Positions 1-13,424 of a stretch of 64,000 nucleotides of DNA are shown here, one piece after another (the first letter of the stretch is position 1; each line of letters opens with the position of its first letter). The position numbers were made by a program, and so were the translations under genes. Source of the DNA: Planctomycetota bacterium (GTDB taxonomy: Bacteria > Planctomycetota > Phycisphaerae > WQYP01); NCBI GenBank assembly GCA_021804985.1, contig JAJZGD010000002.1, positions 1,492 through 65,491 on the forward strand, given 5' to 3'. The notes under the pieces were generated by a model. The model had not been told where the DNA came from and did no database searches. It saw only the letters and a list, made by a program, of their open reading frames with translations.

Positions 1-1880
1 ACACGCGGATTTTCTGGTCCGGTCTTCTCATCCAGGAATCGCCTGGCTTCGGCGCTTAGCTTGCCGGAATCCGATGCGGCGCTCGGTGCCATGATGGCGT
101 AATGGAACAGCCCATCGTCTTCAATATCCCGCGGCTTGGCGGGCAGCATATGCACGCGTACGCCCGCTGCGGATGCTCCGCCGGCCAACCCACGCACACG
201 GGGAAGTTCCTCTACCAGCCTCGCCCTGATCACCTCCGGCGAGAACTGCGCTGCGGCCGCTGCCTGCATCTGCGTCAAATTGGGCCGGTTTCCCAGCCGC
301 CATTGATCTGGTAATTGGTCGCCCCTCTCCGGCACATTGACGTCATCTAACCAGTAGCTGCTGTGCGCCCAGCGAACCAGTGCTTTTTCCAACTCAATTC
401 TGTCCGGCCGGCATGGACCAATCAGCAGCATCAGATCACGTGCCTTCGCGCTGCGGCCTGTTGGCTGCGAATGCAGGAATGTCGCCATCACGGCCTGTCG
501 GATTTCCCGCAGTTTCAGGCCGACCGATTCGTCTTCGACCTGCCGGGCACAATTAAGCTCGGCCTCAAGGATGCCGGTCCAGCGGTTCGCCTGGCCGTCG
601 ACCACGATGGTGTCTGCAATGGCTACTAATTCACGTGCCGCTTCAGATAGCCCCAGCAATCCGGTGGCGTTGAGGAAAACCGCCGGGCCAATCAAGGGAC
701 TTTCATCCCATTTTTCAGCTTCGCGCAGCGCCAGCGCAAAGGTTCGCAAAACGCCGCGCGTCTTCTGAAACCGCTCAATCCCCGCCGCCCACTTGGAGTA
801 GAACACATCCGTCAACTCAGGGTGAAACGGATAGCTTTGAAGATAGCGATCTTCCTCAGCGGCGCTGGCCTTTGCGGTTTGCTCATCCAGGCCGGATATC
901 CCCTTAAGTGCGGCAATCACATGCTGCCGCCACGCCTGGCGGTCTTGCAGTGACGATGTATCCAGCAGCCGGCGGCGAAGCACCTCGGCCACGTCGCCTT
1001 TTTCGACCGGCTGCACCGCCTCTTCCCGCTGACGCTGAAAGATGTCATAAAGTTCGGAAACAATTCGCTTGCCCAATTCGTCCGCCTGATCTTTTGGCTC
1101 GCTCGATAGCAGCGATGCCACGATACAGCATCTGGGTACCTTGGTGGCAGCCTGCGTCAGATACTGGAAAAATGAGCTAAGCAAATCCAAACAGCCGGGA
1201 TCGGAGCGCACCTTCACTTTGGCATACAGCAGCACCTCATCCACCAGCACCAACGTGGAAAGCTTGTCCATCGCCGGTAGTGCCAGCAGGCCTGTCAATG
1301 TTGGCTCGGCCGGCGGCGTGCGCCTTTCCTCGGGCCGGCCTTCTGGATGCAGCAACTGCAAACCGGCATCGCCGGCGATCTGAAATGCCAGGATGCTCCA
1401 TGGATATTTGAGCCGCCTTATTTTTCCATCGGGCGAACGTACCTCGCAGCCGCTTTCCACATCCACTTTATCAAAGCAAAGTGCGGCAACCCGTGCCCTC
1501 GGAGGCGTCAGACCAATCGTTTGTTCAAATTCCTGCACCGCCGGCACGTCGGGAAGTGTGGCCGGATCATTTACAAGATGACGCAGAGTGATGAGTGTGT
1601 GGGTCTTGCCGCCGCCGTAAGTTAGTTCAAGTTGGCGCACGGCTTTGTCATTTTGGCCGGCCAGTCGCAGCACCACATCGCGGGCAAAGTTGCGCAGGTT
1701 ATGGGTCGGATACGTCAGGGCAAAGAAGCTTACCGGGTCTTCGTAGATCGGCAGTTTGCCGCCCTGCATCATGACTTCATAAAGATCGGCTGCGAATAGA
1801 TGCAGCGGCAGCTCGCCGGACTGCAAGTCTTTCCGCAGCTTCACCACTTCATGCCAGGGTTTCCAATGTAACTTAGCCAT
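1..1880 (-). CDS. DUF499-family ATPase (defence-associated), partial; 3' end lies before window start
   Basis: I translated the minus strand by hand from the ATG at 1880: MAKLHWKPWHEVVKLRKDLQSGELPLHLFAADLYEVMMQGGKLPIYEDPVSFFALTYPTHNLRNFARDVVLRLAGQNDKAVRQLELTYGGGKTHTLITLRHLV. The KPW..V, FAADL and Y.DP..FF..TY motifs plus the GGGKTH P-loop are typical of DUF499. An RBS AAGGAAAG lies 6 nt upstream. It is absent from the ORF track because it runs off the edge, and no long plus-strand ORF competes. Confidence 0.75.
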   Translation of the reverse strand, partial: MAKLHWKPWHEVVKLRKDLQSGELPLHLFAADLYEVMMQGGKLPIYEDPVSFFALTYPTHNLRNFARDVVLRLAGQNDKAVRQLELTYGGGKTHTLITLRHLVNDPATLPDVPAVQEFEQTIGLTPPRARVAALCFDKVDVESGCEVRSPDGKIRRLKYPWSILAFQIAGDAGLQLLHPEGRPEERRTPPAEPTLTGLLALPAMDKLSTLVLVDEVLLYAKVKVRSDPGCLDLLSSFFQYLTQAATKVPRCCIVASLLSSEPKDQADELGKRIVSELYDIFQRQREEAVQPVEKGDVAEVLRRRLLDTSSLQDRQAWRQHVIAALKGISGLDEQTAKASAAEEDRYLQSYPFHPELTDVFYSKWAAGIERFQKTRGVLRTFALALREAEKWDESPLIGPAVFLNATGLLGLSEAARELVAIADTIVVDGQANRWTGILEAELNCARQVEDESVGLKLREIRQAVMATFLHSQPTGRSAKARDLMLLIGPCRPDRIELEKALVRWAHSSYWLDDVNVPERGDQLPDQWRLGNRPNLTQMQAAAAAQFSPEVIRARLVEELPRVRGLAGGASAAGVRVHMLPAKPRDIEDDGLFHYAIMAPSAASDSGKLSAEARRFLDEKTGPENPR

Positions 1881-2021
1881 GCTTCTTTCCTTTCACTGCC
1901 GCCCGTGACTCAAGGGCGTGCCGGGTCACGACGATCTCCTGTCGTAGTGCCTCCGGGTCAGGCAGTTCCGTCAGATACCTGGACGCGGACACCTGGGCCC
2001 GGATGGCCCCCATTGCGTACC

Positions 2022-2213
2022 TCACGACGGCGTCTGCGCAATTTCGAATTCTTCCGTTACCGTCGGAACAAACGCCGTTGCGGATTCGCTCGACAGCGCC
2101 GCCCCGCGCGTTGCCTGCTCAAGCGATCGGGAAACGTCCGAAACGGGCCGGTCATACTCACCCGCTGCCCGAGGTGTCCGCGCCGAGCTTGTCACGGTGC
2201 GTTTATGGCTCAT
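2022..2213 (-). CDS. small hypothetical protein (63 aa), start overlaps methylase stop
   Basis: ORF track entry; its ATG overlaps the stop of the DUF1156 gene, and it sits between the methylase and the DUF499 gene. I recognise no domain; a plus-strand ORF overlaps it. Confidence 0.3.
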   Translation of the reverse strand: MSHKRTVTSSARTPRAAGEYDRPVSDVSRSLEQATRGAALSSESATAFVPTVTEEFEIAQTPS

Positions 2214-5200
2214 GTTCCATCCTTGGCAAATCCCATTTTCATTTGATCGGCGTCGGCCCGCGTTCCCCTTGCCCCGACATGGTTGCTCATGCTTTCCAGA
2301 ATGGATCGCTCGCTATTCGTGGACAACTCGATCAGCGATTGCACCACGCGCTTAAAAAGCTCATTCTTACGCAAGGCCGACGCATCCAAATACTCATCCA
2401 CCTTATGCACGTCCCCCTGCTTCCACAGGTGCATCAGCCGATGGATGCGGTCGATCAGTGGAATCGCCTTACCACCCGGTGCCTCGTAGCCCATGCTTTT
2501 TCCGTGCCGCTGGCTCCAGGCCTTAAGTTTAATTTTCTGGCCTGGGGAGCCGGACTCCACTTCTTCCTCTTGGTCGGGCTCGGCGTCTTCTGCTTCCGCT
2601 CCGTTACCGTCGCGGCTCGGACCGTCTTGCTCGCTGCCGCGTCTGGCCAGCACGTTCCATGTTTTCTCTAACTCGGTATCCGAGAGTCCGCAGGCGGTGG
2701 CGTAAAGAATGCACGCGCCGACGGGTGCGTCTTCCAAGCCAAAATCATTGCGGTGCAGCAAGTAGTATGAGGTTACATCGTCCAAGCGGTCCGTGGGAAT
2801 TTCCGCTCCCTGACGGTCGCGGCTCGGACGGGATTCGCCCACCGCGCTACGCGTAGCATCCGATCCGGGTGTAATATCCTCCCCGCCGCCGGTCTCCGCG
2901 CCCCCGCCGATTCCCGCGCCGCGACCAATATCCGCACCAAAACCAATATCCGCACCAAAACTAATATCCGAGCCGCGACCGTCAGGGAGCGGTACACTCA
3001 ACACCCGCCCGACGACGAAGTCCACCACCATCCGCCGAACGTGCGTGAGAAATTCACCAACGGACATGGTGGCGTTGGGCTGGTCTGCCTTGCGCACTAC
3101 CGGATGCTTGCTGTATGCCTCAAGCGCCGGCCCCGTGGCAGCCCAGACAAAATCGGGCCCGCGAATACCGGCATCCCAGAAATCGCGCAGCTTGGTCGCG
3201 ACGTTGCTTCGCATTTCTTCCAATACCGCGTTATCCCAGCCGGGCCGGGCGTTTGCCGGGCGCTTCCGCGCAACCAGCCAAACCGATGATGCGAGCGCGG
3301 CCGAAGTCTTGGCCCGCATTCTCGTGGCCATTTCGGTTTGGATTGGCCAGCTTCCAACGGCCACAAATCCGGCGCGAATGATCGCGGACACGAGTGTCTC
3401 CCAAGCGTCCGGCTGCTTATTAGCGAACACAACGACCAGCCGGCCATGGACCGTTAAGGCCTCAGCGCACCGCGAGAAGGCGGTCGCCATCCCATCCTCG
3501 TACGCCTGCTTGCTCTTAGCCCCGTCGTTGCCGTGGCGGCTGGAATCGTCAATTAGCTCACCATCGTTCTCGTCGTGGTTCCATTTCGGCGCAACGGTTG
3601 ATGCGAAGGCGCGGTCGGCGGTTGGGGCGAGCCCGCGAAGCGTCCGCCGCAACCAAATGTAGAAGAAATCCATCAGGTCGGAGTACGGAATCGCGTCATA
3701 GTAGGGCGGATCGGTGACAATAACGTCCAGCACGCTCATCCGAATCTGGGTGGAGGAGAGCGTGACAACATCGGGCGCCTCGGCCCCATTCCCAGCCAAC
3801 AGGCCGTGATCCACATAGCGAGCCAGCCAGTCAAGCTGCGCCGAGAACGCTCCCCCGACATCGCCCGTGGCGGGGATTTCGGAGAAATCCCACGTTATTG
3901 GTAGAGCGAAGCGCGTGAATGTGTGCCCAATCAGTTCCCGCGAAAGGTGCCACACGCAAATCGTCGAGTTGTAATCAGCCAGCTTATCCACCCCGGATGC
4001 CAAATAGGCCCCGACCGCCTCCATCCACTCCGGTGGGTAGCTGGCGGCAGCCATTGCCTGCCGCGCCGCCCGTGTCGCTGAAACGAACCTTCCCAACGCC
4101 GTCAGTTGACGGGGAGTGAAAAGGTCACGCCAGCGCATCAGGCCGTATCCCTGAACACTGAAGGCCCTGCCGGCACCGGACCCGCCACCTTTCGGCGTCG
4201 GCTCTTCCGGCACACCGAACGGCACATCCTTGAAGGCGGCTTGGATTTGCTCCTCGCTGATCGCAGCGACGGCCAGTTCATGCCCGGTTGGCAGCCGATA
4301 TTCTTTACCGTTTTGTCCATCCACCACCACCGCCGTCATGACACTGCCCACCCGCCCGGCTTTGCCCTCTAGGCGAATGTCTTCCATCGTATTAACTGCC
4401 CCGCAGCACGGGCATGTTGCGCCGGACCGGCTCATGGTGCCGGCACCGATGCGTTTGTCATGTTCGCGCTTTTGCGCAGCATTACCACCTTGCACTGGAA
4501 CATCGGTTTGGACACCGAAGGCAATTATTTTTGTCGCCGCGACCGGGATAAGCGCTCCGTTACCGTCGCGGCTCGGACGGGATTCGCCCACCGCGCTGCG
4601 CGTAGCATCCGATCCGGGTGTAATATCCTCCGCGCCGCCAATTCCCGCGCCGCCGATTCCCGCACCAAAACCAATATCCGATTTGCGCCCAATTCCCGCG
4701 CCGCGACCAATATCCGCACGAAAACCAATATCCGATTTGCGCCCAATTCCCGTGCCGCGACCAATATCCGCACGAAAACCAATATCCGAGCCGCGACCAA
4801 TATCCGCACGAAAACCAATATCCGAGCCGCGACCGTCAGGGAGCGGTATAAGCGGCGCAACTCCCGCCCCATCCTTCACCCGCGGAAGTTCCGCCCCCTG
4901 CCGCTCGTTAACGTACACACACGCCCCCTGCACCGCATCCATGTCCCATAAATAACGTGTGCTGCCGTGCCGAGTCCACGCCCGCGTTTCGGCGGGAAAA
5001 GCTCCTGCCTCAACCATACGGCGCGTCGCATAAGATTTCAGGTCGTTCATCACTCGCTCTGGCGGTACTGGGGCCGCCACCACGATGTGTACGTGATTTG
5101 TACGGACATGCGCCGCGTGCAGCGTCCATCCGCGATACTGGCAAACCTCGAGGATGGTTCGTTCAATAACTTCGCGCTGTGGGGCGTCGAAACTCACGGG

Positions 5201-6724
5201 GGTGTGTTTGAGGCGTTGAAATTCCGCCTGCTCTCTTAACCCGTCATCATCAAGAACCGCCGTTCCAGGAGTGTTGTGGCCACGGTCAACCGACCCGGCG
5301 GCCTTTCCGTGCAGCCAAGTTCCGTAAGCGGTAAATGTGATCATATACGCCGCTGGTTGGTGCGGTGGATTGTCCGCTCCCTGACGGTCGCGGCTCGGAT
5401 TTGAGTCGATGCCGGAGTTTACGAGTTGCAGCGTTAGAAGCACGCGTTTGCGATCCTTTTTGCACAGCCAGCGTGTCTTCAACAAAGGCAACTGTGCGCG
5501 GCAGTTTTTGCATTTCACCGTGCGTGCCCATAGGTAAGCTACCGTAGGCTTTGCCACCCAGCGGATATTGCGCTTGTCCGCAAGATAATCCTTGGAGAAA
5601 TCCGCATTCAACGCATTGGTATTTGGTGTTCCATCATCATTCAATGGCACCAGCCGCAGGTTATCTTCAACCGCTCCGTTACCGTCGCGGCTCGGACGGG
5701 ATTCGCCCACCGCGCTGCGCGTAGCATCCGATCCGGGTGTAATATCCTCCCCGCTGCCAATTCCCGCGCCGCCGATTCCCGCACCAAAACCAATATCCGA
5801 TTTGCGCCCAAAAACCGTATCGCGTCCAATTCCCGCGCTGCGACCAATCTCCGCACCAAAACCAATATCCGAGCCGCGCCCAATATCCGAGCCGCGACCG
5901 TCAGGGAGCGGTCGTCCCCCCCGTTTCACCCGCGCCTCGCATTCGGCATACGTTGGATACAACTCCGCCAGTTCTTTTCGTGCCCGCGCCAGCACCCATT
6001 GCCCCCATGCCCGCACGTGCCACGCGAGGTCGGCGTCCGGTGCATGGGTGGCCTGGCTGGCAGCGAACAGCGTCCCCTTCTGCCTTATGGTCGCCTTGCC
6101 TTGGCCTTCAGCGCCCGGATTGGCCTTGTAAAAGGCCTCCATGAATTCTTCGTTTTCCAGAATGAACGTCGGCAGCGGCCGAGTCTTGCCCGCGAACTGT
6201 TGCGGGTATTCCAACGTGCATTTAAGAATGAACCACGCCACTGGATTAATATCATCTGCCGTCGCTTCACATCCCAGCCGCATGGCTTCCAGCGGAATCG
6301 CTCCGCCACCGGCGAAGGGGTCCAGCACCTTGGGCGCTCTTCCACCGTAGGCCTTCTTAATTTCCTGACGGAACCATTCCAAATCGGCCGCATTTTCGGT
6401 TTCTCGGCCCCAATGCAAAATGCCGCCTTCGGTTTCTTCTTTCACCCGTTCCACGGTCTGCCCATTGGGCATTTTTTTGCGTTCGATTCGCTTGACGACC
6501 TTGCCGGCGATTTTCTCGCACAGCTCTTTGCGTTTCTCCGGCGTGCCGGGATCGGGCAAAAGCGTGGCGATCAGCGCCGCCCGGCACGCCGCCAGCGGCC
6601 GCCGCGCCGGCCAGATATGCAACGTGGAAATATGCCCATGCCGGACATTCTTTTCGTGAACAGAATCCAGCGAAGTCTGTTTCAGTGGAAAAGCGTGTTC
6701 AATAAGTCTGGGAAAGTCAGTCAT
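2210..6724 (-). CDS. DUF1156-family N6-adenine DNA methyltransferase carrying in-frame inserted elements
   Basis: N-terminus MTDFPRLIEHAFPLKQTSLDSVHEKNVRHG.ISTLHIWPARRPLAA is the DUF1156 signature. The DPPY motif (..VIVTDPPYYDAIPYSDL..) and a Cys-rich segment (KCKNCRAQ, CPCCG) are present. The RBS AAGGAGGAAG precedes the ATG at 6724. The track ORF reaches 7210, but residues 1-162 are the upstream repeat element read in another frame. Confidence 0.8.
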   Translation of the reverse strand: MTDFPRLIEHAFPLKQTSLDSVHEKNVRHGHISTLHIWPARRPLAACRAALIATLLPDPGTPEKRKELCEKIAGKVVKRIERKKMPNGQTVERVKEETEGGILHWGRETENAADLEWFRQEIKKAYGGRAPKVLDPFAGGGAIPLEAMRLGCEATADDINPVAWFILKCTLEYPQQFAGKTRPLPTFILENEEFMEAFYKANPGAEGQGKATIRQKGTLFAASQATHAPDADLAWHVRAWGQWVLARARKELAELYPTYAECEARVKRGGRPLPDGRGSDIGRGSDIGFGAEIGRSAGIGRDTVFGRKSDIGFGAGIGGAGIGSGEDITPGSDATRSAVGESRPSRDGNGAVEDNLRLVPLNDDGTPNTNALNADFSKDYLADKRNIRWVAKPTVAYLWARTVKCKNCRAQLPLLKTRWLCKKDRKRVLLTLQLVNSGIDSNPSRDRQGADNPPHQPAAYMITFTAYGTWLHGKAAGSVDRGHNTPGTAVLDDDGLREQAEFQRLKHTPVSFDAPQREVIERTILEVCQYRGWTLHAAHVRTNHVHIVVAAPVPPERVMNDLKSYATRRMVEAGAFPAETRAWTRHGSTRYLWDMDAVQGACVYVNERQGAELPRVKDGAGVAPLIPLPDGRGSDIGFRADIGRGSDIGFRADIGRGTGIGRKSDIGFRADIGRGAGIGRKSDIGFGAGIGGAGIGGAEDITPGSDATRSAVGESRPSRDGNGALIPVAATKIIAFGVQTDVPVQGGNAAQKREHDKRIGAGTMSRSGATCPCCGAVNTMEDIRLEGKAGRVGSVMTAVVVDGQNGKEYRLPTGHELAVAAISEEQIQAAFKDVPFGVPEEPTPKGGGSGAGRAFSVQGYGLMRWRDLFTPRQLTALGRFVSATRAARQAMAAASYPPEWMEAVGAYLASGVDKLADYNSTICVWHLSRELIGHTFTRFALPITWDFSEIPATGDVGGAFSAQLDWLARYVDHGLLAGNGAEAPDVVTLSSTQIRMSVLDVIVTDPPYYDAIPYSDLMDFFYIWLRRTLRGLAPTADRAFASTVAPKWNHDENDGELIDDSSRHGNDGAKSKQAYEDGMATAFSRCAEALTVHGRLVVVFANKQPDAWETLVSAIIRAGFVAVGSWPIQTEMATRMRAKTSAALASSVWLVARKRPANARPGWDNAVLEEMRSNVATKLRDFWDAGIRGPDFVWAATGPALEAYSKHPVVRKADQPNATMSVGEFLTHVRRMVVDFVVGRVLSVPLPDGRGSDISFGADIGFGADIGRGAGIGGGAETGGGEDITPGSDATRSAVGESRPSRDRQGAEIPTDRLDDVTSYYLLHRNDFGLEDAPVGACILYATACGLSDTELEKTWNVLARRGSEQDGPSRDGNGAEAEDAEPDQEEEVESGSPGQKIKLKAWSQRHGKSMGYEAPGGKAIPLIDRIHRLMHLWKQGDVHKVDEYLDASALRKNELFKRVVQSLIELSTNSERSILESMSNHVGARGTRADADQMKMGFAKDGT
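2596..2620. repeat. solo 25-bp terminal motif (CCGCTCCGTTACCGTCGCGGCTCGG) of the repeat-element family, inside the methylase CDS
   Basis: Exact match to the left terminal inverted repeat of the elements. It is translated in frame as ..DGPSRDGNGA.. Confidence 0.7.
2803..2992. mobile_element. repeat element copy 3 (MITE/RPE-like), in frame in the methylase CDS
   Basis: Left TIR CCGCTCCCTGACGGTCGCGGCTCGG at 2803-2827 is the perfect reverse complement of the right TIR CCGAGCCGCGACCGTCAGGGAGCGG at 2968-2992. The interior holds a conserved ~55-bp module plus 18-bp tandem units (ACCAATATCCGC-N6). It encodes PLPDGRGSDISFGADIGFGADIGRGAGIG..GEDITPGSDATRSAVGESRPSRDRQGA. Confidence 0.75.
4549..4843. mobile_element. 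repeat element copy 2 (MITE/RPE-like), in frame in the methylase CDS, abutting the HuH transposase-like segment
   Basis: Left TIR at 4549-4574 and right TIR at 4819-4843 flank about 14 units of the 18-bp tandem repeat (54-bp and 36-bp higher-order units). The encoded peptide is PLPDGRGSDIGFRADIGRGSDIGFRADIG.. Confidence 0.8.
4819..5398 (-). mobile_element. IS-like unit: 25-bp perfect inverted repeats flanking an IS200-like HuH (Y1) transposase domain, embedded in frame in the methylase ORF
   Basis: The 25-mer at 4819-4843 is the exact reverse complement of the 25-mer at 5374-5398. Between them, minus-strand codons give YMITFTAYGTWLHGKAAGSVDRGHN..RGWTLHAAHVRTNHVHIVVAAPVPPERVMNDLKSYATRRM, with the HuH motif (HVHIVV) and the downstream catalytic Tyr context typical of IS200-like Y1 transposases. 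There is no stop and no strong independent RBS. Confidence 0.6.
5671..5911. mobile_element. repeat element copy 1 (MITE/RPE-like), in frame in the methylase CDS
   Basis: Left TIR at 5671-5695, right TIR at 5887-5911, with internal 18-bp repeats. It encodes RPLPDGRGSDIGRGSDIGFGAEIG..SRPSRDGNGA, inserted after ..ECEARVKRGG of the methylase. Confidence 0.8.
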
Positions 6725-6748
6725 GCGCTTCCTCCTTAGGCAATTCAA

Positions 6749-7082
6749 CCGCTCCGTTACCGTCGCGGCTCGGACGGGATTCGCCCACTGCGCCGAGCCC
6801 ATCATCCGATTTGTGTTCGATATCCCCACCGCGTGCGATACCATCCCGGCGCCCGATTCCCGCACCATAACCAATATCCGCACCGCGACCAATATCCGCC
6901 CCAAAACCAATATCCGATTTGCGCCCAAAAACCGTATCGCGTCCAATTCCCGCGCTGCGACCAATATCCGCCCCAAAACCAATATCCGAGCCGCGACCAA
7001 TATCCGCACCAAAACCAATATCCGAGCCGCGACCGTCAGGGAGCGGTATAAGCGGCGCAACTCCCACCCCGAAGCCCACCCG
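6749..7082. mobile_element. repeat element copy immediately upstream of the methylase start, plus a ~35-bp remnant of the transposase 3' end
   Basis: Left TIR at 6749-6773 lies 24 bp upstream of the methylase ATG, just beyond the RBS. The right TIR is at 7022-7046. The sequence 7047-7082 (TATAAGCGGCGCAACTCCC..CCCACCCGCGC) resembles the junction between the transposase domain and element copy 2 at 4844-4880. Confidence 0.75.
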
Positions 7083-7232
7083 CGCATGATGGCACGCCGC
7101 CAGCGGGCGCCGCGCCGGCCAGATATGCAATGTGGAAATAGGCCCATGCCGGACATTCTTTTCGTGCACGGAATCCAGCAAGGTCTGTTTCGGTGGAAAC
7201 GCGTGCTCAATAAGTCTGGGAAAGTCAGTCAT
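7083..7232 (-). pseudogene. duplicated 5' end (codons 1-~50) of the DUF1156 methylase gene, fused to the upstream element; retains the ancestral ATGA overlap with the Abi-like gene
   Basis: 7090-7232 aligns with 6590-6724 with only scattered mismatches. It encodes MTDFPRLIEHAFPPKQTLLDSVHEKNVRHGPISTLHIWPARRPLAAC, then runs into the element (HHARVGFGVGVAPLIPLPDG..), and stops just before the true ATG. ORF track entry 6717..7232. Confidence 0.7.
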
Positions 7233-8065
7233 AATCCCTTCATTTGCTTCAATGTTCGAAGCAGCATATCACCGACGATGCCCATCACTTGCGTCGCATG
7301 CCGAGCCTCCTCGGTGGTAATGGACGGAAGCCAAGGATGGCCGTGGCCAGTGCCCTGCTTATTTCGCAGCATGTTCACAGCGCAAGCGGCGTCGTATAAC
7401 GCTCGCTGTAACCTATGTTGCGGCGGGTCACCGGTCGCTGCCGTATCGGCCGAGGTCTTGAGACCAAGTGCAACGAACGCCTGACCAAGCAGTGTCGGAA
7501 AATCGTGCGGCGGGCCGCTTTTGTTATATACCTCCAGAAGCACATGTGCCGCGACTGCCTCCAGCAAGTCCTTCCCCGTACCTACGACGAGTGCCGCATC
7601 ATCCGATCCCCTTTGGGCGCGGCGCACATACGCAGCGAGAGCCTCGGTAAGCTCTGTCCCCGAGAGCGAGTCCAAGGCAGCAGTTTGAATTTCCCCGTCA
7701 GACGTCAGCGCGAACCCTTCGGCCGCCATCGCTTCGCGGAGGCCCTTGACGGCTTCTGCCCCGACGAAATTCGGCGAGTCAGGCCGGAACCCCCCGCATG
7801 AGCGGATATGGGTGACTAGTTGGCCGACAAAGCAACGACCGTTCTCAAACGAGTTCTCAATCGCCCACATCAGTACCGCGCGGACACGCTTGGTTTTGCC
7901 GACTGTCTGGCCCTGGGACTTTGGATCACCGCCGCTTAGGTGGGACTGCGCGATACAGAAGTCAATATCGGAATGGCTCGGATCACGGCGCTCGGACTGC
8001 GCGTCACCCACCATCCGTGCGAGCGCAAAGGCGATTGAATCGGTAAGCGGAGGCTTGTGACTCAT
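7229..8065 (-). CDS. Abi_C / HEPN-like abortive-infection family protein
   Basis: Track ORF 7229..8104. The likely start is the ATG at 8065 (MSHKPPL..) with a GGAGA RBS 7 nt upstream. The C-terminal region RALYDAACAVNMLRNKQGTGHGHPW contains an R-x6-H HEPN-type motif resembling the Abi C-terminal domain. The stop overlaps the ATG at 7232 (ATGA). Confidence 0.5.
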   Translation of the reverse strand: MSHKPPLTDSIAFALARMVGDAQSERRDPSHSDIDFCIAQSHLSGGDPKSQGQTVGKTKRVRAVLMWAIENSFENGRCFVGQLVTHIRSCGGFRPDSPNFVGAEAVKGLREAMAAEGFALTSDGEIQTAALDSLSGTELTEALAAYVRRAQRGSDDAALVVGTGKDLLEAVAAHVLLEVYNKSGPPHDFPTLLGQAFVALGLKTSADTAATGDPPQHRLQRALYDAACAVNMLRNKQGTGHGHPWLPSITTEEARHATQVMGIVGDMLLRTLKQMKGL

Positions 8066-8135
8066 CGCGGTGTCTCCGCGCGGTCCCAATGCCACGACGG
8101 CCATGAACGCTCATATTTCATGGGACCAAAATACT

Positions 8136-8959
8136 TCATCCGTTTCTCCCCAGTGCTACAAGGGAATTCGGTGCCGCATCACCCCACCATTTCTGGCAGG
8201 GAACGCTGCGCCTCTCAGGCCACCTGGAGGAACGTGGCAGCATACGTGACACGAGGGTCTTCACGTACCCGTCGATCAAGGCCCTCTCGCCGTCCCACTC
8301 TTCGGCAGCCACAAAGTCGTGAAGCTCTGCGTAGCGGTGCAGAATGAAGGCATAAAGATCAGCTACCTGCACAAGCCCCGCATGGTGCGACTTAACGGTA
8401 AAAGCACTGTCTATGAGCTGGTCAAGTTGCCCCTGGCCTTTGGCACGACCGTAGTACGTATCCGTCCAGCCAGGAGGTTTGAACAAAAGTTCCGCCAAGT
8501 CATCAGCCATTTTTTTGTTTTCATCGAAGATTAAAAACGTGTGGCCCTTGTTGCTCTTCTTGCCTTGGTGATGTTTCTGAAGTTGGAGAGCAATATGGAG
8601 CGCAGCCACCAACCAAGGATCATGCTTTATTTCGGCGAAGCTAGCCGGACCGCTTTGTGCGAACTTTTCTCTATCAATCGCGGAGATCGCCAAATAGTGT
8701 TTACGCTTTACGAGCCAATCGCAAAAGAATTGGACAATGCGTTTTCGCTTGTCAGGATCAACGTTGCGCCACCGGTCCCGACCAAAGATTATCTTCGATC
8801 CTTTGAGCTCGCGCAAATTTTCTTGGAACAGTTGCTGAACAGAATCGAACTCCTTGTCAAACTCTTGTTGCGTTCGATTGAGTCTCGTTGCATCGACAAC
8901 GATTCCGACCATGACCAGGCAGGGCCCTTGGGCGTCGTTACCACTTTCGTCGACATAAC
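8136..8959 (-). CDS. DUF3800-family protein
   Basis: N-terminal motif VKVCYVDESGN matches DUF3800 (Y.DESG). The probable start is the GTG at 8959, preceded by GGAGGAAG with 4-nt spacing and lying 7 bp after the helicase stop. The track ORF extends to 9149 only by overlapping the helicase. Confidence 0.6.
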
Positions 8960-8965
8960 AGACTT

Positions 8966-11900
8966 TCACGTAACTTCCTCCACAGAAGCATTTACGATTG
9001 CGGCCACGCTCACCACGACGCTCCCCTTCGCCTTCGCCAACAAACTTCCAAATGGGTCCTGCACGCGAACCAGTCGCGGCGCGGGCGTTGCGCAGTCGTA
9101 AACCACGTACAGCCAATAGCCATCCCGCAAATTCGCCGCGCGAGCCCATTCGTTGGACGTGACTTCCACATCTCCGGTGCCGGCGCGGCCTTTCACTTCA
9201 ATGGCCTTTGTGCGGCAGGCCCCTGTGCCCGTCATCGACAGGAGATCAAATCCCGGATTGTCGGTCAGCCCCGCCGCACGGGCCAATTCCGGCGTCTGGA
9301 CGTCCTTCACAGTCGCCCCGGCGGTCTCTTCGAATGCACGGGCTACATCTATCGCAATCTTCTCAACCTCGGCGTCCTGGCGTTTCACGTCATCGGGGTC
9401 CGCCGATGGCACAACCAACGCGTGGGCTAAGAATTTAATATTACCGGGGCCAATTAGATCCGGCTCGCGGGTAAGCGTCGCCAACGCCATGTCGCGGCGA
9501 TGGGCCAGCGACCGTTGTTGCTCCTTAATACCGCCGAGCGCCTTGGCGGCGGCGGTATTGCCGGTTCGGGCCTTTTCCGCCCGCTGTTTTTCCCTGGCTT
9601 CCGCCAGTTCCACCTCCTGGTAGGCAAAGCCGCGCCGAATGAAATCCCGGCGCTCCGCCATTGTGGCCAAAAGCGTCTGCCGTCGCTGGCTTGCCAGTGA
9701 ACGTGCAACGCTTTCAGTCGCGTAGGCGGAAGCCTGTTCCGTAAGCCTCTCGGCCGCCATTGCCAGCCGCTGGGCTTCCGGCGGCAGCCCCCCGTGCCTG
9801 CCCTTGAGCAGCAGCAGATGCTCCACCGCACATGGGGCAATTTCCGCCCCTTCATTCTGCCTAATCCCCACAAGCCGACAGTCCAGCAGCTCCTCTTGGG
9901 CGAGGTCCGCCAATTCGCGGTCGGCATGGCGAAGAATTTTGATCAGAGCCAAGTGAAATAGGTACGGCTTAGTGCACATCGGATCGACAAACACCGCGCC
10001 TCGGCGGGCCTGGGCCTGTAGCTGCTCACTGACGATCGACCGGAATCGATCGAACACCGGCTCGCCGGGGTGCAGCCAGATGATGCGGTCCTTTTCCGCC
10101 GGGTCGGGGCGAATCACAGAGAAGCAGGAGCGCTGGCGTGGCGAATAAATTTCGGCTTCCCGCAGCAATGCATCAACCGCTCCCTCGCGGCCCGGCCTGA
10201 GGGTGAAACAGCCGTTCATGTCGCCATCAATTTCCACGTCCACCAGCGGCGCTGCGTTTTCAACGTAGTTGCGAACATATCCCGGCAGCAGCCGGCAGTA
10301 TGCCTCTTGCTGCAGGTCCCGCCGAAGTTCCGGCAACCGACGTTTCACGTCGCCACCGTCGCCATATATCCTTGTCTCCTTCGCTACCAAAGCCGCGACC
10401 TGCTCGGCGGTGAGCCTGCCGTCAAGTTCGTTGGCCACGGCGTCCGCATCACCCAAGGCTGCGCGCTCCATATAATCCCTGAGCGATACCCCCTCAAACA
10501 ACCGGCCAATCGAGTCATATACTTTTTCTGTGCCCAGGGCATTTCGTATGGCCTCCAACTTTGTCAACAGCGTTTTAAGCACCAGCCCCTCACGCGTCTT
10601 GGGCGCGATCAGATTGACAATCTGCACAGGATCGTGCTTTTGGCCGTAACGGTGAATCCGCCCCATCCGCTGCTCCAGGCGGGCCGGGTTCCACGGCACA
10701 TCGAAGTTAATCATGATCCAGCAGAACTGGAGATTGATGCCTTCCGCCGCGGCATCGGTGCAAACCATAAACTGCGCGCCATCTTGCTCGTTGGGCCGCC
10801 GGAATTTCTCCACCTGCTCCTGCCGCCGGACGTAATCCATACCGCCATGGATGCGGGCTATTTGTTCCGTGTAGCCCATCCCCCCAAGCCGTTTGGCCAG
10901 ATAGTCGAGCGTGTCACGATGTTCTGTGAAGATGATAAATTTTTCACCGGCGAAGCGCTGGTCGGCCAGCACCTCGCGGAGTTTGTCAAACTTGGATTCG
11001 CCGCCGTGCTCGTAAACATCACGGGCCAGATCGCAAAGGCGCACGACTTCATCCCGCTCGGCGACCAGTTCCGCCATCGATGACGCCAAAACACCGGCAA
11101 GCAGGCTTTCTTCCGAAATTTCGCCTTCCTCGCATCCGGCGGAACTGTCTTCCTCGTCGGCCGTCTTGCTGTCCAAGACGTCGTGCTCGCGCTCCAGGTT
11201 GCGTTGCAGAATGACAAGCTGCTCCGGCGTCAGTTCGCCGGTCTGAAGTTGGCGAATCAGGCCTTCAAGCTTGTCAATGCGTCGTCGCAGGGAACGCAGC
11301 AGGGCGTAGGTGGAACTGGCTAGCCGACGCTGCAGCACACTCATCGCCATCTGGGCGGCGGAACGATTGAGCACTTTGGCCCGGTTATACACGTGCCGCA
11401 TGTAATCTGTGGTCTGGTCGTAGAGCGCCTGCTCGCTGTTCGGGCCGCAGGTCAGATCGTAGCCCAGCGTGTCCGATATGCGCCGGGGATACAGCGGCTT
11501 GCCGTCAAGCTGCACCATTTCTTCCTTGGTGCGGCGGATGAATTTGGCTAGACGTTGTTGGGCGGGGTATTCGTCGAATGCGTGTGGCGTTGCGAGAATT
11601 TTGGGCTCCAGCAAACGCCAGAGCGCGTAATACGGATAATCTTTCCCTTGATGCGGCGTAGCGGTAAGCAGAAGGACGTGGTGTGCTGCCCAGGGCAATC
11701 GCCAGCCCGGTTCGGCATCCGGCACACCGCATAATCCTTCAGCGAGCTTGTAGCGTTCGGTTTTGTTCACCCGCAGGTCGCCGCCACGATCCGCCGAAAG
11801 CTTGTGAGCCTCATCAAATATCACGAGATCATACGGCTGCACGTCCGGCTCACCCAGGCGGGCAAACATGCGCGCACCGGCCAATGTATCCACGCTGACG

Positions 11901-12568
11901 ATAACACTGTCGCTTCGCTCACCGCCAAATGGATTGCCGCTTTTCGCGTCCACGCCCCTGATGATGTTGAACTGCAGGCCAAAGAGCGTCGCCAACTCAC
12001 TTCGCCAGTTGCCAATCAGACCGGCCGGCGGAATTACCAAAACGCGCCGAATCAGGCGGCGGCTTATCATTTCTCGGATATACAGGCCGGACATAATGGT
12101 CTTGCCGGCGCCGGCGTCATCTGCCAGCAGGAATCGCAGTGGTGATTGTTTGAGCATGTGCTCGTAGACGGCGATTCTTTGGTGCGGCAGGGGGTCGATT
12201 TGCGAGATTTCCGTCGCAAACACTGGGTTGAACATGTGGCCGAAACTCAGGCGTTCGCCCTCGGCCAGTACGCGAACAACTTCCGGCGACGCGGTAAAGT
12301 CCAGTGGTGGCGCTGCGTTCGAATCCAGACCTGAATCGGCGGTAGCGGGATTTACCGAATCGGGTTGCTCCCCATCCATCCGCTGTAAGCGTGACCAAGC
12401 CAATGGCGATGGGCGAGTTTGGCCGTTTTCCCAACGGTTCACCGTAGTGAACGACACACCGAGTCTCTCGGCCAGTTCAACCTGCGTTAACCCGAACCGC
12501 TCCCGAAAGCGTTTAACCCGCTTCGAATATTCAGGGGGAGTGTCAGATGTCGAGATTTCTTGCGACAT
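8966..12568 (-). CDS. SNF2/DEAH-family helicase with an N-terminal HTH-XRE domain and a C-terminal DUF3883 (PD-(D/E)xK-like) domain
   Basis: HTH: FGLTQVELAERLGVSFTTVNRWENGQTRPS. Walker A: DDAGAGKTIMSG. DEAH box: LVIFDEAHKL. A C-terminal helicase domain is present. The tail ..FDLLSM..AIEVKGRAG..VEVTSNEWARAANLRDGYWLYVVYD fits DUF3883. Confidence 0.85.
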   Translation of the reverse strand: MSQEISTSDTPPEYSKRVKRFRERFGLTQVELAERLGVSFTTVNRWENGQTRPSPLAWSRLQRMDGEQPDSVNPATADSGLDSNAAPPLDFTASPEVVRVLAEGERLSFGHMFNPVFATEISQIDPLPHQRIAVYEHMLKQSPLRFLLADDAGAGKTIMSGLYIREMISRRLIRRVLVIPPAGLIGNWRSELATLFGLQFNIIRGVDAKSGNPFGGERSDSVIVSVDTLAGARMFARLGEPDVQPYDLVIFDEAHKLSADRGGDLRVNKTERYKLAEGLCGVPDAEPGWRLPWAAHHVLLLTATPHQGKDYPYYALWRLLEPKILATPHAFDEYPAQQRLAKFIRRTKEEMVQLDGKPLYPRRISDTLGYDLTCGPNSEQALYDQTTDYMRHVYNRAKVLNRSAAQMAMSVLQRRLASSTYALLRSLRRRIDKLEGLIRQLQTGELTPEQLVILQRNLEREHDVLDSKTADEEDSSAGCEEGEISEESLLAGVLASSMAELVAERDEVVRLCDLARDVYEHGGESKFDKLREVLADQRFAGEKFIIFTEHRDTLDYLAKRLGGMGYTEQIARIHGGMDYVRRQEQVEKFRRPNEQDGAQFMVCTDAAAEGINLQFCWIMINFDVPWNPARLEQRMGRIHRYGQKHDPVQIVNLIAPKTREGLVLKTLLTKLEAIRNALGTEKVYDSIGRLFEGVSLRDYMERAALGDADAVANELDGRLTAEQVAALVAKETRIYGDGGDVKRRLPELRRDLQQEAYCRLLPGYVRNYVENAAPLVDVEIDGDMNGCFTLRPGREGAVDALLREAEIYSPRQRSCFSVIRPDPAEKDRIIWLHPGEPVFDRFRSIVSEQLQAQARRGAVFVDPMCTKPYLFHLALIKILRHADRELADLAQEELLDCRLVGIRQNEGAEIAPCAVEHLLLLKGRHGGLPPEAQRLAMAAERLTEQASAYATESVARSLASQRRQTLLATMAERRDFIRRGFAYQEVELAEAREKQRAEKARTGNTAAAKALGGIKEQQRSLAHRRDMALATLTREPDLIGPGNIKFLAHALVVPSADPDDVKRQDAEVEKIAIDVARAFEETAGATVKDVQTPELARAAGLTDNPGFDLLSMTGTGACRTKAIEVKGRAGTGDVEVTSNEWARAANLRDGYWLYVVYDCATPAPRLVRVQDPFGSLLAKAKGSVVVSVAAIVNASVEEVT

Positions 12569-12662
12569 AACGATGCAATGTTACCCGCAGCGCTGGCCCA
12601 CGTCAAGCTGACTATTGCATATGCCATATCTACCACTTTTAAGCGCACGCGGTGATAGTTAT

Positions 12663-12895
12663 TTACGAGCCAGGTGCCAGCGAGCCAAGTCGGCCCCCCG
12701 CGCGGATTAACCGCACAATTGTGACGGCTTCGCAGGCATCCCGCCCCGCAATGGGTTTGGCCAGTGGCCGCCGCGCCGGCCAGATATGCAACGTGGAAAT
12801 AGGCCCATGCCGGACATTCATTTCGTGAACAGAATCGAGAGATGCCTGCTTGAGTGGAAAAGCGAATTCAATTAAACGGGGAAAGTCAGTCATGA
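12663..12895 (-). pseudogene. third, truncated copy of the methylase 5' end with its RBS (77-aa ORF that diverges after codon ~45)
   Basis: ORF 12663..12893 gives MTDFPRLIEFAFPLKQASLDSVHEMNVRHGPISTLHIWPARRPLA then unrelated sequence. Upstream lies the same CCTAAGGAGGAAG RBS plus an element TIR as at the true gene start. Confidence 0.7.
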
Positions 12896-12918
12896 CACTT
12901 CCTCCTTAGGCAATCCAA

Positions 12919-13250
12919 CCGCTCCGTTACCGTCGCGGCTCGGACGGGATTCGCCCACTGCGCCGAGCCCGTCATCCGATTTGCGTTGGATATCCCCATC
13001 GCGCCCAATACCATCCCGGCGCCCGATTCCCGCACCATAACCAATATCCGATTTGCGCCCAAAAACCGTATCGCGTCCAATTCCCGAGCCATAACCAATA
13101 TCCGCACCAATACCAATTCCCGAGCCATAACCAATATCCGCACCAATACCAATATCCGAGCCGCGACCGTCAGGGAGCGGTATAAGCGGCGCAACTCCCA
13201 CCCCGAAGCCCACCCGCGCATGATGGCACGCCGCCAGCGGGCGCCTGAGG
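12919..13250. mobile_element. repeat element copy upstream of the helicase operon (a near-identical duplicate of the 6749-7082 copy and its flanks)
   Basis: Left TIR at 12919-12943 and right TIR at 13157-13181. The flank 13182-13250 is near-identical to 7047-7110 and includes the RRPLAAC codons. The 18-bp repeats are present (peptide frame ..GSDIGIGADIGYGSGIG..). Confidence 0.75.
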
Positions 13251-13424
13251 CCTTTACGCCTGCGTTTTGTCGCATGCGGTCGAGCGACCGCCATGGCAGC
13301 TCCTAAATCCCGGCAGATAAAATCTTTTTACGCGTCATTCCGCCGTTGAGCAAGGGGTGGGCTGGAAGACAGCGTGCGACGGCCACTGCATCCGGCCGCG
13401 TGCCCCCATTGTCTTAAGCGGCGC

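What the first reader, a model, noticed from the sequence alone, without database searches (positions are those of the whole stretch)
6575..7232. Triplicated 5' end of the methylase gene (with RBS) as direct repeats flanking element copies
The first ~150 bp of the DUF1156 gene occur three times in direct orientation: 6575-6724 (the functional start), 7083-7232 and 12760-12895. The 7232 copy keeps the ancestral ATGA overlap with the upstream Abi-like gene. The functional start instead sits behind an element copy and uses the RBS CCTAAGGAGGAAG, which also precedes the 12893 copy.

The arrangement 5'frag - element - RBS - full gene is what a Campbell-type integration of a circular element carrying a homologous 5' fragment would leave. 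The 12663-13250 block looks like a segmental duplicate of 6575-7110.

Because all copies are direct repeats, recombination between 12760-12895 and 6590-6724 would delete about 6 kb (helicase, DUF3800 and Abi genes). This could act as an ON/OFF or composition switch for the island.
Basis: partly seen in the sequence, partly recalled or inferred. Interest (0 to 1): 0.65.

Follow-up and report, generated by a model that had tools for sequence, protein, structure and literature searches.

The report
Tripled start of defence methylase gene
The first 142 bases of a phage-defence methylase gene really are present three times, because a small repeat element split the gene's start and a fresh ribosome-binding site plus start was recombined in behind it; this looks like recombination scarring with a working repair, and nothing shows it to be a programmed switch.

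Summary
The 5' end of the DUF1156 gene (minus strand) occurs three times: A 6583-6724, B 7091-7232, C 12760-12893. Four other assemblies show parts of the same arrangement at 98.6-99.96% identity.

The gene is hmaB of an Hma defence operon: hmaA, DUF3800, Abi_C, hmaB, hmaC. In an 81%-identical relative, Abi_C overlaps hmaB by 4 nt, so B is the ancestral start.

The "element" is a REPIN-like repeat: inverted 26-nt REPs around 18/36-nt tandem units. It sits after nt 142, between invariant residues C47 and R48. An AGGAGG site and the intact copy A follow it. B and C carry changes at invariant residues and are dead. The B ORF stops inside ATGACTGA, overlapping A's ATG.

Block C (12760-13245) is a colinear copy of 6591-7111. 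It equals one 508-nt repeat period plus 13 nt, which suggests a circular or tandem intermediate.

Differences between copies fall mainly on third codon positions, which suggests exchange with other working alleles. Other strains show a mosaic C block (L003) or lack the island (L002). The predicted 6-kb deletion was not found, and no integrase-type recombinase was found in the visible part of the island.

Verdict: recombination scars with a functional restart. An ON/OFF switch is possible but unsupported.

The parts
6583..6724 (-). Copy A: the working 5' end (first 142 nt) of hmaB (DUF1156 methylase gene 2210..6724)
   Evidence: Reference copy of repeat family D4. It is continuous with the 1504-codon ORF. 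Its residues match the consensus of 106 homologues.
6725..6740 (-). Shine-Dalgarno segment CCTAAGGAGGAAG plus a 3-nt spacer, in front of the ATG at 6724
   Evidence: Read directly from the sequence. It is absent upstream of B and upstream of hmaB in L124 and L126.
6741..7090 (-). Element E1. It consists of a 44-nt tail homologous to the 3' flank of the RAYT gene, REP 7046..7021, 18/36-nt tandem units, and inverted REP 6774..6749
   Evidence: The terminal inverted REPs pair in the DNA fold.
7091..7232 (-). Copy B: the ancestral hmaB start, now a dead fragment carrying L14P, S18L and H31P
   Evidence: 93% identical to A. Its ATGA overlaps the Abi_C stop. L124 and L125 have the same context. Substitutions are listed.
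6717..7232 (-). 171-codon ORF running from B through E1. Its TGA at 6719..6717 overlaps the new start (ATGACTGA)
   Evidence: The identical ORF is present in L001 and L128.
7229..8104 (-). Abi_C-domain gene, cargo embedded in the hma operon
   Evidence: Pfam Abi_C, E = 4.7e-11.
8136..9149 (-). DUF3800 gene, embedded cargo. The likely real start is near 8969
   Evidence: Pfam DUF3800, E = 2.8e-14. L001 has a 277-aa gene call here.
8966..12568 (-). hmaA, encoding an HTH + SNF2 helicase + NOV_C protein
   Evidence: PADLOC HmaA, E = 1.6e-159. Pfam domains.
12578..12606 (-). Sigma-70-like promoter match (TTGACG-17-TAACAT) ahead of hmaA, in the unique spacer X (12569-12759)
   Evidence: This is a consensus match only. 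It is one of two promoter-like sites in 6400-13500 (the other, 12553..12526, is inside hmaA), fewer than the shuffle mean of 3.1, and none lies in the element copies.
12760..12893 (-). Copy C: the first 134 nt of an hmaB 5' end, dead (K25M, H31P). It heads a 76-codon ORF 12663..12893
12894..12910 (-). Second copy of the SD segment, CCTAAGGAGGAAG plus a 4-nt spacer
12911..13224 (-). Element E6, a copy of E1 that lacks one 36-nt unit
13225..13245 (-). A 21-nt tail identical to nt 122-142 of copy B, forming the left end of block C
   Evidence: Positions 13245..13148 are identical to 7111..7014.
2210..6724 (-). hmaB ORF of 1504 codons, kept open through five in-frame insertions: E2 5671-5911, REP 5374-5399 + RAYT + E3 4552-4846, E4 2803-2992, and solo REP 2596-2621
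   Evidence: L128 confirms 7476..3025.
3..1880 (-). hmaC (DUF499 ATPase), which runs off the left end of the window
   Evidence: PADLOC HmaC, E = 2.2e-55.

Best explanation
The triplication is a set of recombination scars around a REPIN-like repeat element in an Hma defence operon, together with a functional repair of the methylase start.

1. The ancestral operon was hmaA, cargo, Abi_C, hmaB, with the Abi_C stop overlapping the hmaB start (ATGA). This part is shown.
2. A REPIN-like element, derived from the 3' flank of a RAYT (IS200-like Y1 transposase), now lies after nt 142. That position is between invariant residues C47 and R48, where an insertion should kill the enzyme. The other copies of the element sit in stretches of hmaB that vary among the few homologues compared.
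3. hmaB survives because the element is followed by a strong SD and a complete, consensus 5' end (copy A). That end was probably brought in by recombination with another hmaB allele. Translation therefore starts at 6724. The old start B now heads a 171-codon decoy ORF. This ORF stops inside ATGACTGA, so termination-reinitiation could keep hmaB coupled to the operon. This step is inferred.
4. B and A are 142-nt direct repeats whose starts are 508 nt apart. Block C (12760-13245) has exactly the structure of one such period opened within nt 122-134 and placed at the island's left border. This suggests a small circular or tandem intermediate. This step is inferred.
5. The copies then exchanged patches with each other and with foreign alleles, while B and C decayed. 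The mosaics are shown.

The direct repeats could delete the hmaA/DUF3800/Abi_C module, but only as ordinary homologous recombination. Nothing indicates a dedicated switch.
For: - Three copies and their geometry.
- The same arrangement in independent assemblies: L001, L128, L129 and L130.
- Hma identity: HmaA E = 1.6e-159, HmaB E = 1.1e-116, HmaC E = 2.2e-55.
- Cargo between hmaA and hmaB is common in Hma systems (PMC11232893).
- Ancestral Abi_C/hmaB 4-nt overlap in L124 and L125.
- Element anatomy and RAYT linkage.
- H31 is invariant in 106 of 106 homologues, K25 in 105, S18 in 105 and L14 in 103. B and C are mutated at these residues and A is not. The insertion site lies between invariant C47 (C/S/A) and R48.
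- Differences between copies are biased to third codon positions: A-B 7 of 10, B-C 14 of 22 (P = 0.0035).
- Block C is colinear with 6591-7111, and its sharp ends fall at nt 122 and nt 134.
- L003 and L002 are mosaics.
- No promoter-like site lies in the elements. One of only two matches in 6400-13500 precedes hmaA, and that count is below the shuffle mean.
- hmaB stays open for 1504 codons across five insertions, which implies selection for a working gene.
Against: - There are no expression data, so use of the ATG at 6724 and the proposed coupling are inferred from sequence alone.
- The order of events cannot be recovered from these sequences.
- The 19-nt SD segment has no identifiable source.
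- No 508-nt circle, tandem array or B-by-A deletion product was observed.
- The codon-position statistics rest on only 10-22 differences.
- Two independent illegitimate joins (serial island replacement) could also give block C.
- The right end of the island is outside the window.
Confidence: 0.5

Rival explanations
1. A circular DNA carrying X-hmaA-DUF3800-Abi_C plus a homologous E/RBS/5'-fragment region integrated by a single (Campbell) crossover. The roughly 0.5-kb direct repeats now act as an ON/OFF or composition switch by excising the 6.2-kb module.
For: - Direct repeats 12760-13245 and 6591-7111 flank exactly hmaA-DUF3800-Abi_C-B.
- The repeats exchange sequence in the population (L003).
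- Hma operons are known hotspots for swapping embedded cargo (PMC11232893).
- HmaA alone is reported to defend, so the modules are separable.
Against: - The model presupposes the B-E-RBS-A structure inside the circle, so it does not explain where that structure came from.
- No integrase-type recombinase was found in the visible part of the island; the only transposase gene is the RAYT-like one inside hmaB.
- The repeats are only 85-93% identical outside a 98-nt identical stretch.
- The predicted deletion product was not found among the few contigs available for this lineage. L002 lacks the whole island through a different junction.
Confidence: 0.17
2. Serial island replacement. Block C is the remnant of an older resident allele (E-RBS-hmaB as the first gene). 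That allele was overwritten by incoming Hma DNA through homology-facilitated illegitimate recombination. The B-E-RBS-A structure arose when such an E-RBS-hmaB allele recombined into a canonical Abi_C-hmaB operon, using the 21-nt tail and downstream homology.
For: - Synonymous-biased divergence points to three once-functional alleles.
- Natural variants F10 and A17 in C occur in homologues.
- The divergent tract in the window's C block spans the E right end, the SD and codons 1-19. This implies that another lineage has the same E-SD-hmaB architecture.
- Junctions J1 and J4 are sharp and show no homology.
Against: - It needs two independent illegitimate joins that happen to fall within the same 13 nt of the 5' fragment (nt 122 and nt 134).
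- It does not explain the origin of the 21-nt tail.
- No standalone E-RBS-hmaB locus was found.
Confidence: 0.2
3. Self-repairing mobile cassette. The unit E + SD + the first 47 codons of hmaB is itself mobile as a roughly 0.5-kb circle, mobilised by the RAYT encoded inside hmaB. It carries a replacement gene start so that insertion into the invariant hmaB motif is not lethal.
For: - Block C equals one period plus 13 nt, which is a circle-like permutation.
- A RAYT with an HUH motif and a tyrosine lies in the same gene, flanked by inverted REPs.
- The same module sits at two places in the island.
Against: - The module is seen only at these two places in one locus.
- The ends at nt 122 and 134 are not REP hairpins. 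No Y1-transposase-like cleavage motif was identified there.
- The 13-nt overlap is not a feature of IS200/IS605 transposition (from established knowledge).
Confidence: 0.08
4. The repeats are an assembly artefact: collapsed or chimeric repeats in a metagenome assembly.
For: All sequences of this lineage come from metagenome assemblies. Contigs tend to break at the elements (L001 ends in E6 and E2).
Against: Four further contigs from separate records (one NCBI MAG, three ENA contigs from two assemblies) reproduce the junctions base for base: L001, L128, L129, L130. Each copy also has unique flanks and diagnostic substitutions.
Confidence: 0.03

Closest known systems
REP / REPIN elements with RAYT (REP-associated tyrosine transposase) genes
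   Same: The element has short conserved palindromic units in inverted pairs. A Y1 (HUH) transposase gene is flanked by inverted REPs. The repeats act as recombination substrates.
   Different: The copies here are intragenic and in frame, not extragenic. The REP pairs enclose 190-300 nt of 18/36-nt tandem units. The same 26-mer occurs exactly in many phyla, whereas REP families are often species-specific, though some are shared among species (PMC3733652). The transposase match is weak: Pfam 26.6 bits and no PDB sequence hit.
Rickettsia palindromic elements (RPEs), which are in-frame selfish repeats in protein genes
   Same: These are palindromic repeats inserted in frame into genes that stay open. 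The copies tolerated are those in variable regions.
   Different: The sequence family and hosts are unrelated. Here one insertion hit an invariant motif and was bypassed by a new SD + start, which is not a described RPE outcome (from my own knowledge, plus PMC3733652 for RPE background).
Integration of prophages or genomic islands into a gene end, with a replacement end carried by the element (partial gene duplicate at attL/attR)
   Same: There is a duplicated gene-end fragment in direct orientation on either side of inserted DNA. The interrupted gene stays functional because the insert supplies a new end.
   Different: No integrase or att core was found. There are three copies rather than two. 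The copy next to the gene is separated from it by a repeat element and an SD, not fused seamlessly.
Hma defence system (HmaA/HmaB/HmaC) with embedded cargo genes
   Same: All three core genes match the PADLOC profiles. The cargo (DUF3800, Abi_C) sits between hmaA and hmaB, as reported for about two thirds of Hma loci (PMC8565338, PMC11232893).
   Different: hmaB here carries five in-frame repeat insertions, including a transposase, and has a duplicated and relocated start. I did not find this described in the two Hma papers read.
REP-mediated chromosomal duplications and homology-facilitated illegitimate recombination
   Same: Dispersed repeats or one-sided homology generate duplications with sharp novel joints.
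   Different: The joints of block C (nt 122 and nt 134 of the gene fragment) lie in the gene fragment, not in the REPs. This comparison rests on my own knowledge and was not tested.

Membership tests
Hma defence system (PADLOC) | HmaA: SNF2-type helicase with a C-terminal NOV_C/nuclease region | tested here: met
   PADLOC HmaA E = 1.6e-159 over residues 86-1174. Pfam finds SNF2-rel, Helicase_C and NOV_C.
Hma defence system (PADLOC) | HmaB: DUF1156 methyltransferase | tested here: met
   PADLOC HmaB E = 1.1e-116. Pfam DUF1156 E = 9e-18. The NCBIfam DUF1156_antiphage match is far below its cut-off because the insertions split it.
Hma defence system (PADLOC) | HmaC: DUF499 ATPase in the same operon | tested here: met
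   PADLOC HmaC E = 2.2e-55 on the 626 residues that lie inside the window. The gene is cut by the window end.
Hma defence system (PADLOC) | Anti-phage activity | not testable with these tools
   Only a Halomonas HmaA has been tested experimentally (PMC11232893).
REP/REPIN-RAYT | A short conserved palindromic unit repeated many times, often as inverted pairs | tested here: met
   12 matches to the 26-mer in the window against 0 expected. They form five inverted pairs plus a solo copy and a RAYT-flanking copy.
REP/REPIN-RAYT | An associated Y1 (HUH) transposase gene flanked by REPs in inverted orientation | tested here: met
   Pfam Y1_Tnp scores 26.6 bits against a cut-off of 23. The HVH motif and SYATRR are visible. 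REPs 5374-5399 and 4821-4846 are inverted around it. The match is weak: the NCBIfam IS200 score is below its cut-off and there is no PDB sequence hit.
REP/REPIN-RAYT | Extragenic location | tested here: not met
   All copies except E6 lie inside ORFs. E1 lies within the 171-codon B ORF. E2, the RAYT-flanking REP, E3, E4 and the solo REP are in frame within hmaB. In-frame copies also occur in other phyla.
REP/REPIN-RAYT | Mobilisation by the RAYT | not testable with these tools
   There is no experimental or polymorphism evidence for transposition. Only 1 of 120 loci from other genomes has a RAYT homologue nearby.
Campbell-type integrated element / excisable island | Direct repeats bounding the inserted DNA | tested here: met
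   12760-13245 and 6591-7111 are colinear direct repeats.
Campbell-type integrated element / excisable island | A dedicated recombinase (integrase) or att core | tested here: not met
   No integrase-type recombinase was found among the large island ORFs scanned between about 1 and 13245; small ORFs were not scanned. The only transposase gene is the RAYT-like one inside hmaB. The right part of the island is outside the window.
Campbell-type integrated element / excisable island | Observed circular form or precise empty site | tested here: not met
   No contig shows the predicted deletion junction. L002 lacks the island but through a different joint at nt ~125. Sampling is very thin (five contigs besides the window).
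Phase-variable (ON/OFF) defence locus | Reversible, high-frequency rearrangement seen as within-population heterogeneity at defined junctions | tested here: inconclusive
   Different samples carry different C-block mosaics (L003 against L130). This shows gene conversion, not reversible switching. No read-level data were available.

The most novel reading that the evidence does not exclude
The unit 'REPIN-like element + Shine-Dalgarno site + first 47 codons of hmaB' may be a self-repairing insertion module. It would travel as a roughly 0.5-kb circle, perhaps made by the Y1 transposase that sits in frame inside the same gene. It would bring its own replacement gene start, so it could occupy the most conserved motif of a defence methylase without killing it. 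More broadly, the 26-nt REP family, shared exactly across many phyla, may be adapted to live inside reading frames. It is open in four of six frames and encodes hexapeptide (IGxGxD) repeats.
Probability: 0.1. Interest if true: 0.7.

Novelty: new variant of a known kind. Interest (0 to 1): 0.4.

Why it matters
- It is a clear natural example of how a defence operon survives a repeat-element hit in an essential motif. The start of the gene was duplicated and re-equipped with its own ribosome-binding site, and the old start was left as a coupled decoy ORF.
- It shows that the very conserved hmaB 5' end is a recombination substrate in a system already known as a hotspot for swapping defence cargo. 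This could help explain how the cargo between hmaA and hmaB is exchanged.
- The repeats give a testable route to loss of the helicase/DUF3800/Abi_C module.
- The side observation may be of wider interest than the triplication itself. A 26-nt palindromic unit is conserved exactly across phyla and often sits in frame in real genes.

Tried and rejected
- Rfam scan of 1-14000 at E <= 1: no family matched, so the element is not a described RNA.
- JGI metagenome scans for the SD/ATG junction and for the RAYT-tail/REP junction: 0 hits each, so this lineage is not in that collection.
- Plasmid and phage collections: only short hits to the conserved DUF1156 5' region, and none to the element.
- Search for further homology of block C's flanks to hmaB: none, the scores equal shuffles.
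- Search for extra 5' fragments in the related Hma loci L124-L126: none.
- Search for an empty site in more distant relatives through the flanking GH28 gene: the next relatives are 67-70% identical, and the one whose context was checked (P0125, 67%) is not syntenic.
- The sequence after the fragment in island-less L002 has no match in the window. I could not tell whether it borders the island's far end.
- A tRNA-like end of L002 was not confirmed by ARAGORN.
- A simple large target-site duplication was rejected, because the 19 nt before A differ from the 19 nt before B.
- A pure in-situ duplication followed by neutral decay is disfavoured by the third-position bias. It is not excluded if foreign patches were converted in later.
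- A PDB sequence search with the transposase segment found nothing.

Full report
**Observation**

The repeat finder returns one family of three direct copies of a 142-nt segment on the minus strand: 6583-6724, 7091-7232 (93% identical) and 12752-12893 (85%).

Reading the sequence shows the following.
- The ATG at 7232 overlaps the TGA of the upstream ORF 7229..8104 (ATGA).
- The ATG at 6724 is preceded by CCTAAGGAGGAAG at 6740..6728.
- The same motif precedes the ATG at 12893.
- Homology of the third copy ends at 12760, which is nt 134.

The arrangement is not an assembly artefact.
- An NCBI MAG contig (L001, 7403 nt) is colinear with window 13190..5788. It has 27 mismatches, none of them in the repeats.
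- An ENA contig (L128) matches 7476..3025 with 2 mismatches.
- L129 and L130 cover the left block.

**What the genes are**

PADLOC profiles identify an Hma defence operon on the minus strand:

| Gene | Coordinates | E-value |
|---|---|---|
| hmaA | 8966..12568 | 1.6e-159 |
| hmaB (the DUF1156 gene) | 2210..6724 | 1.1e-116 |
| hmaC (runs off the window) | 3..1880 | 2.2e-55 |

A DUF3800 gene and an Abi_C gene lie between hmaA and hmaB.

Hma was proposed as a three-gene candidate system by Payne et al. (PMC8565338). About two thirds of hma loci are reported to carry inserted defence genes (PMC11232893).

In a relative whose HmaB N-terminus is 81% identical (L124 and L125), the order is hmaA, UvrD-like gene, Abi_C, hmaB. 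Abi_C and hmaB overlap by 4 nt, and B's upstream sequence aligns with that Abi_C 3' end. Copy B is therefore the ancestral start in its ancestral context.

**What the element is**

A 26-nt unit, CCGCTCCSTKACSGTCGCGGCTCGGA, occurs 12 times in the window against 0 expected. All copies lie in 2596-13180.

- Five inverted pairs enclose 18/36-nt tandem units: E1, E2, E3, E4 and E6.
- Two inverted copies flank an IS200/RAYT-like Y1 transposase segment. It matches Pfam Y1_Tnp at 26.6 bits, and an HVH motif and a tyrosine are visible.
- E1 and E6 begin with 44 nt homologous to the 3' flank of that transposase.

So the element is REPIN-like. Unlike classical REPs, every copy inside hmaB is in frame, and the ORF stays open for 1504 codons. 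REPs inside genes and the in-frame Rickettsia elements are precedents (PMC3733652).

**Which copy works**

Among 106 homologous N-termini:
- H31 is invariant;
- K25 and S18 are conserved in 105;
- L14 is conserved in 103;
- the stretch W38-A46 and R48-A50 is invariant.

Copy A matches the consensus at every position where B and C differ from it. Copy B carries L14P, S18L and H31P. Copy C carries K25M and H31P.

E1 sits exactly between C47 and R48, inside the invariant motif. E2 and the RAYT+E3 unit lie in stretches that vary among the few homologues compared; E4's site was not compared. I infer that an insertion at this site would inactivate the enzyme, and that the SD plus the intact copy A behind the element is what keeps hmaB alive.

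The old start now heads a 171-codon ORF (6717..7232). It reads through E1 and stops at a TGA inside ATGACTGA, overlapping the new ATG. This geometry would allow termination-reinitiation.

One of only two promoter-like matches in 6400-13500 precedes hmaA (12606..12578); the other lies inside hmaA, none lies in the elements, and the count is below the shuffle mean. Co-transcription is therefore likely. Both the coupling and the co-transcription are inferences.

**Geometry of the third copy**

Block C (12760-13245, 486 nt) is colinear with 6591-7111 (521 nt). It differs in length by one 36-nt unit and one extra base.

In order, block C consists of:
- nt 122-142 of a B-type fragment;
- the element;
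- the SD;
- nt 1-134 of the fragment.

Both of its ends fall in the same 13 nt (GGCGSCCRCTGGC). The flanks beyond show no homology. The block therefore equals one 508-nt period plus 13 nt.

This is what a circle released by B-by-A recombination, or one unit of a tandem array, would look like after being opened at that motif. Two unrelated illegitimate joins landing within 13 nt of each other would be a coincidence.

**History**

Differences between the copies are concentrated at third codon positions:

| Pair | Differences | At third position | P |
|---|---|---|---|
| A-B | 10 | 7 | 0.02 |
| A-C | 15 | 8 | 0.09 |
| B-C | 22 | 14 | 0.0035 |

The non-synonymous differences F10 and A17 in C are natural variants in the family. 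Much of the divergence therefore arose in working genes. This points to recombination with other alleles and argues against simple decay in place.

Comparison between strains supports this.
- In L003, the C block keeps the window's C-type flanks but carries a contiguous E1/A-type tract. The tract runs from mid-element to about codon 19.
- L002 is another mosaic.
- In the window itself, 13245..13148 is identical to 7111..7014.

The blocks exchange patches with each other and apparently with foreign alleles that share the E-SD-hmaB architecture.

**Structural variation**

L002 has flanking genes 98.5% identical to the window. It carries flank, block and 5' fragment up to about nt 125. Unrelated sequence and a peroxiredoxin gene follow, and no Hma genes are present. 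The island can therefore be lost, and one breakpoint lies in the fragment.

No contig shows flank-E-RBS joined to a full hmaB. Sampling is thin: five contigs besides the window. Both JGI scans were empty.

No integrase-type recombinase was found in the visible part of the island; the only transposase gene is the RAYT-like one inside hmaB. Outside the 98-nt identical stretch, the repeats are 85-93% identical. A deletion by ordinary homologous recombination is plausible, but a programmed switch is unsupported.

**Unresolved**

- The 19-nt SD segment has no identifiable source.
- The order of events cannot be determined.
- The right end of the island lies outside the window.
- H31P is shared by B and all C variants, which suggests conversion between them.

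**Verdict**

The best reading is recombination scars around a REPIN-like insertion, with a functional restart of hmaB (confidence about 0.5). The main rivals are serial island replacement (0.2) and a Campbell-type excisable module (0.17).

This is a new variant of known phenomena: repeat-mediated duplication, in-frame palindromic elements, and cargo turnover in Hma loci. Its interest is moderate.

Noticed in passing
It often lies in frame inside long ORFs that look like real genes from their sequence (not confirmed by domain search): a MetH-like protein in L051, PKS-like ACP linkers in L005, a cyclase-like protein in L110, an unidentified long ORF in L073, and a VWA-like protein in L062. There is no Rfam family for it. 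Exact conservation across phyla is unusual for a REP.
   Followed up: partly
window ~4870-5360 (minus), flanked by REPs 5374-5399 and 4821-4846: An IS200/RAYT-like Y1 transposase (HVH motif, tyrosine in SYATRR) is fused in frame inside hmaB. It has no stop codon of its own, so it would be translated as part of the methylase unless an internal start is used. The second assembly L128 shows the same sequence.
   Followed up: partly
window 1-64000: All 12 copies of the REP in the 64-kb window lie inside the Hma island, 10 of them between 2596 and 7046 (hmaB plus the E1 element just upstream of its start). None lies in the remaining roughly 50 kb. The elements either came in with the island or spread locally from the transposase in hmaB.
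   Followed up: no
window 6860-7034, 4638-4834, 5779-5899, 2924-2970, 12990-13162: The 18/36-nt tandem units inside the elements encode hexapeptide repeats (IGxGxD, with a weak LpxD-like match). The elements are free of stops in four of six frames. The number of units varies: E6 lacks 36 nt relative to E1, and L002 lacks 72 nt.
   Followed up: partly
proteins P0004-P0123: The best 120 homologues of the HmaB N-terminus are all only 216-467 aa long. Several are on contigs above 100 kb and end in frameshifted text. Either hmaB is often split or pseudogenised, or these long-read assemblies carry indel errors.
   Followed up: no
window 12191-12306 and 10763-10991 (hmaA); 16750-17166: Differences between near-identical strains (L001 and L129 against the window) cluster in short patches and are not spread evenly. 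This suggests frequent short recombination tracts in hmaA and in the CTP synthase gene.
   Followed up: no
L002 6543-8028: A strain with 98.5%-identical flanking genes has no Hma island. It keeps only the block of element, SD and truncated 5' fragment, followed by unrelated sequence and a peroxiredoxin gene. The same contig was seen in two samples.
   Followed up: partly
window 8966-9149: The mechanical DUF3800 ORF (8136..9149) overlaps the end of hmaA by 184 nt. The gene call in L001 (277 aa) starts near 8969 with a 4-nt overlap, which is the likelier start.
   Followed up: no
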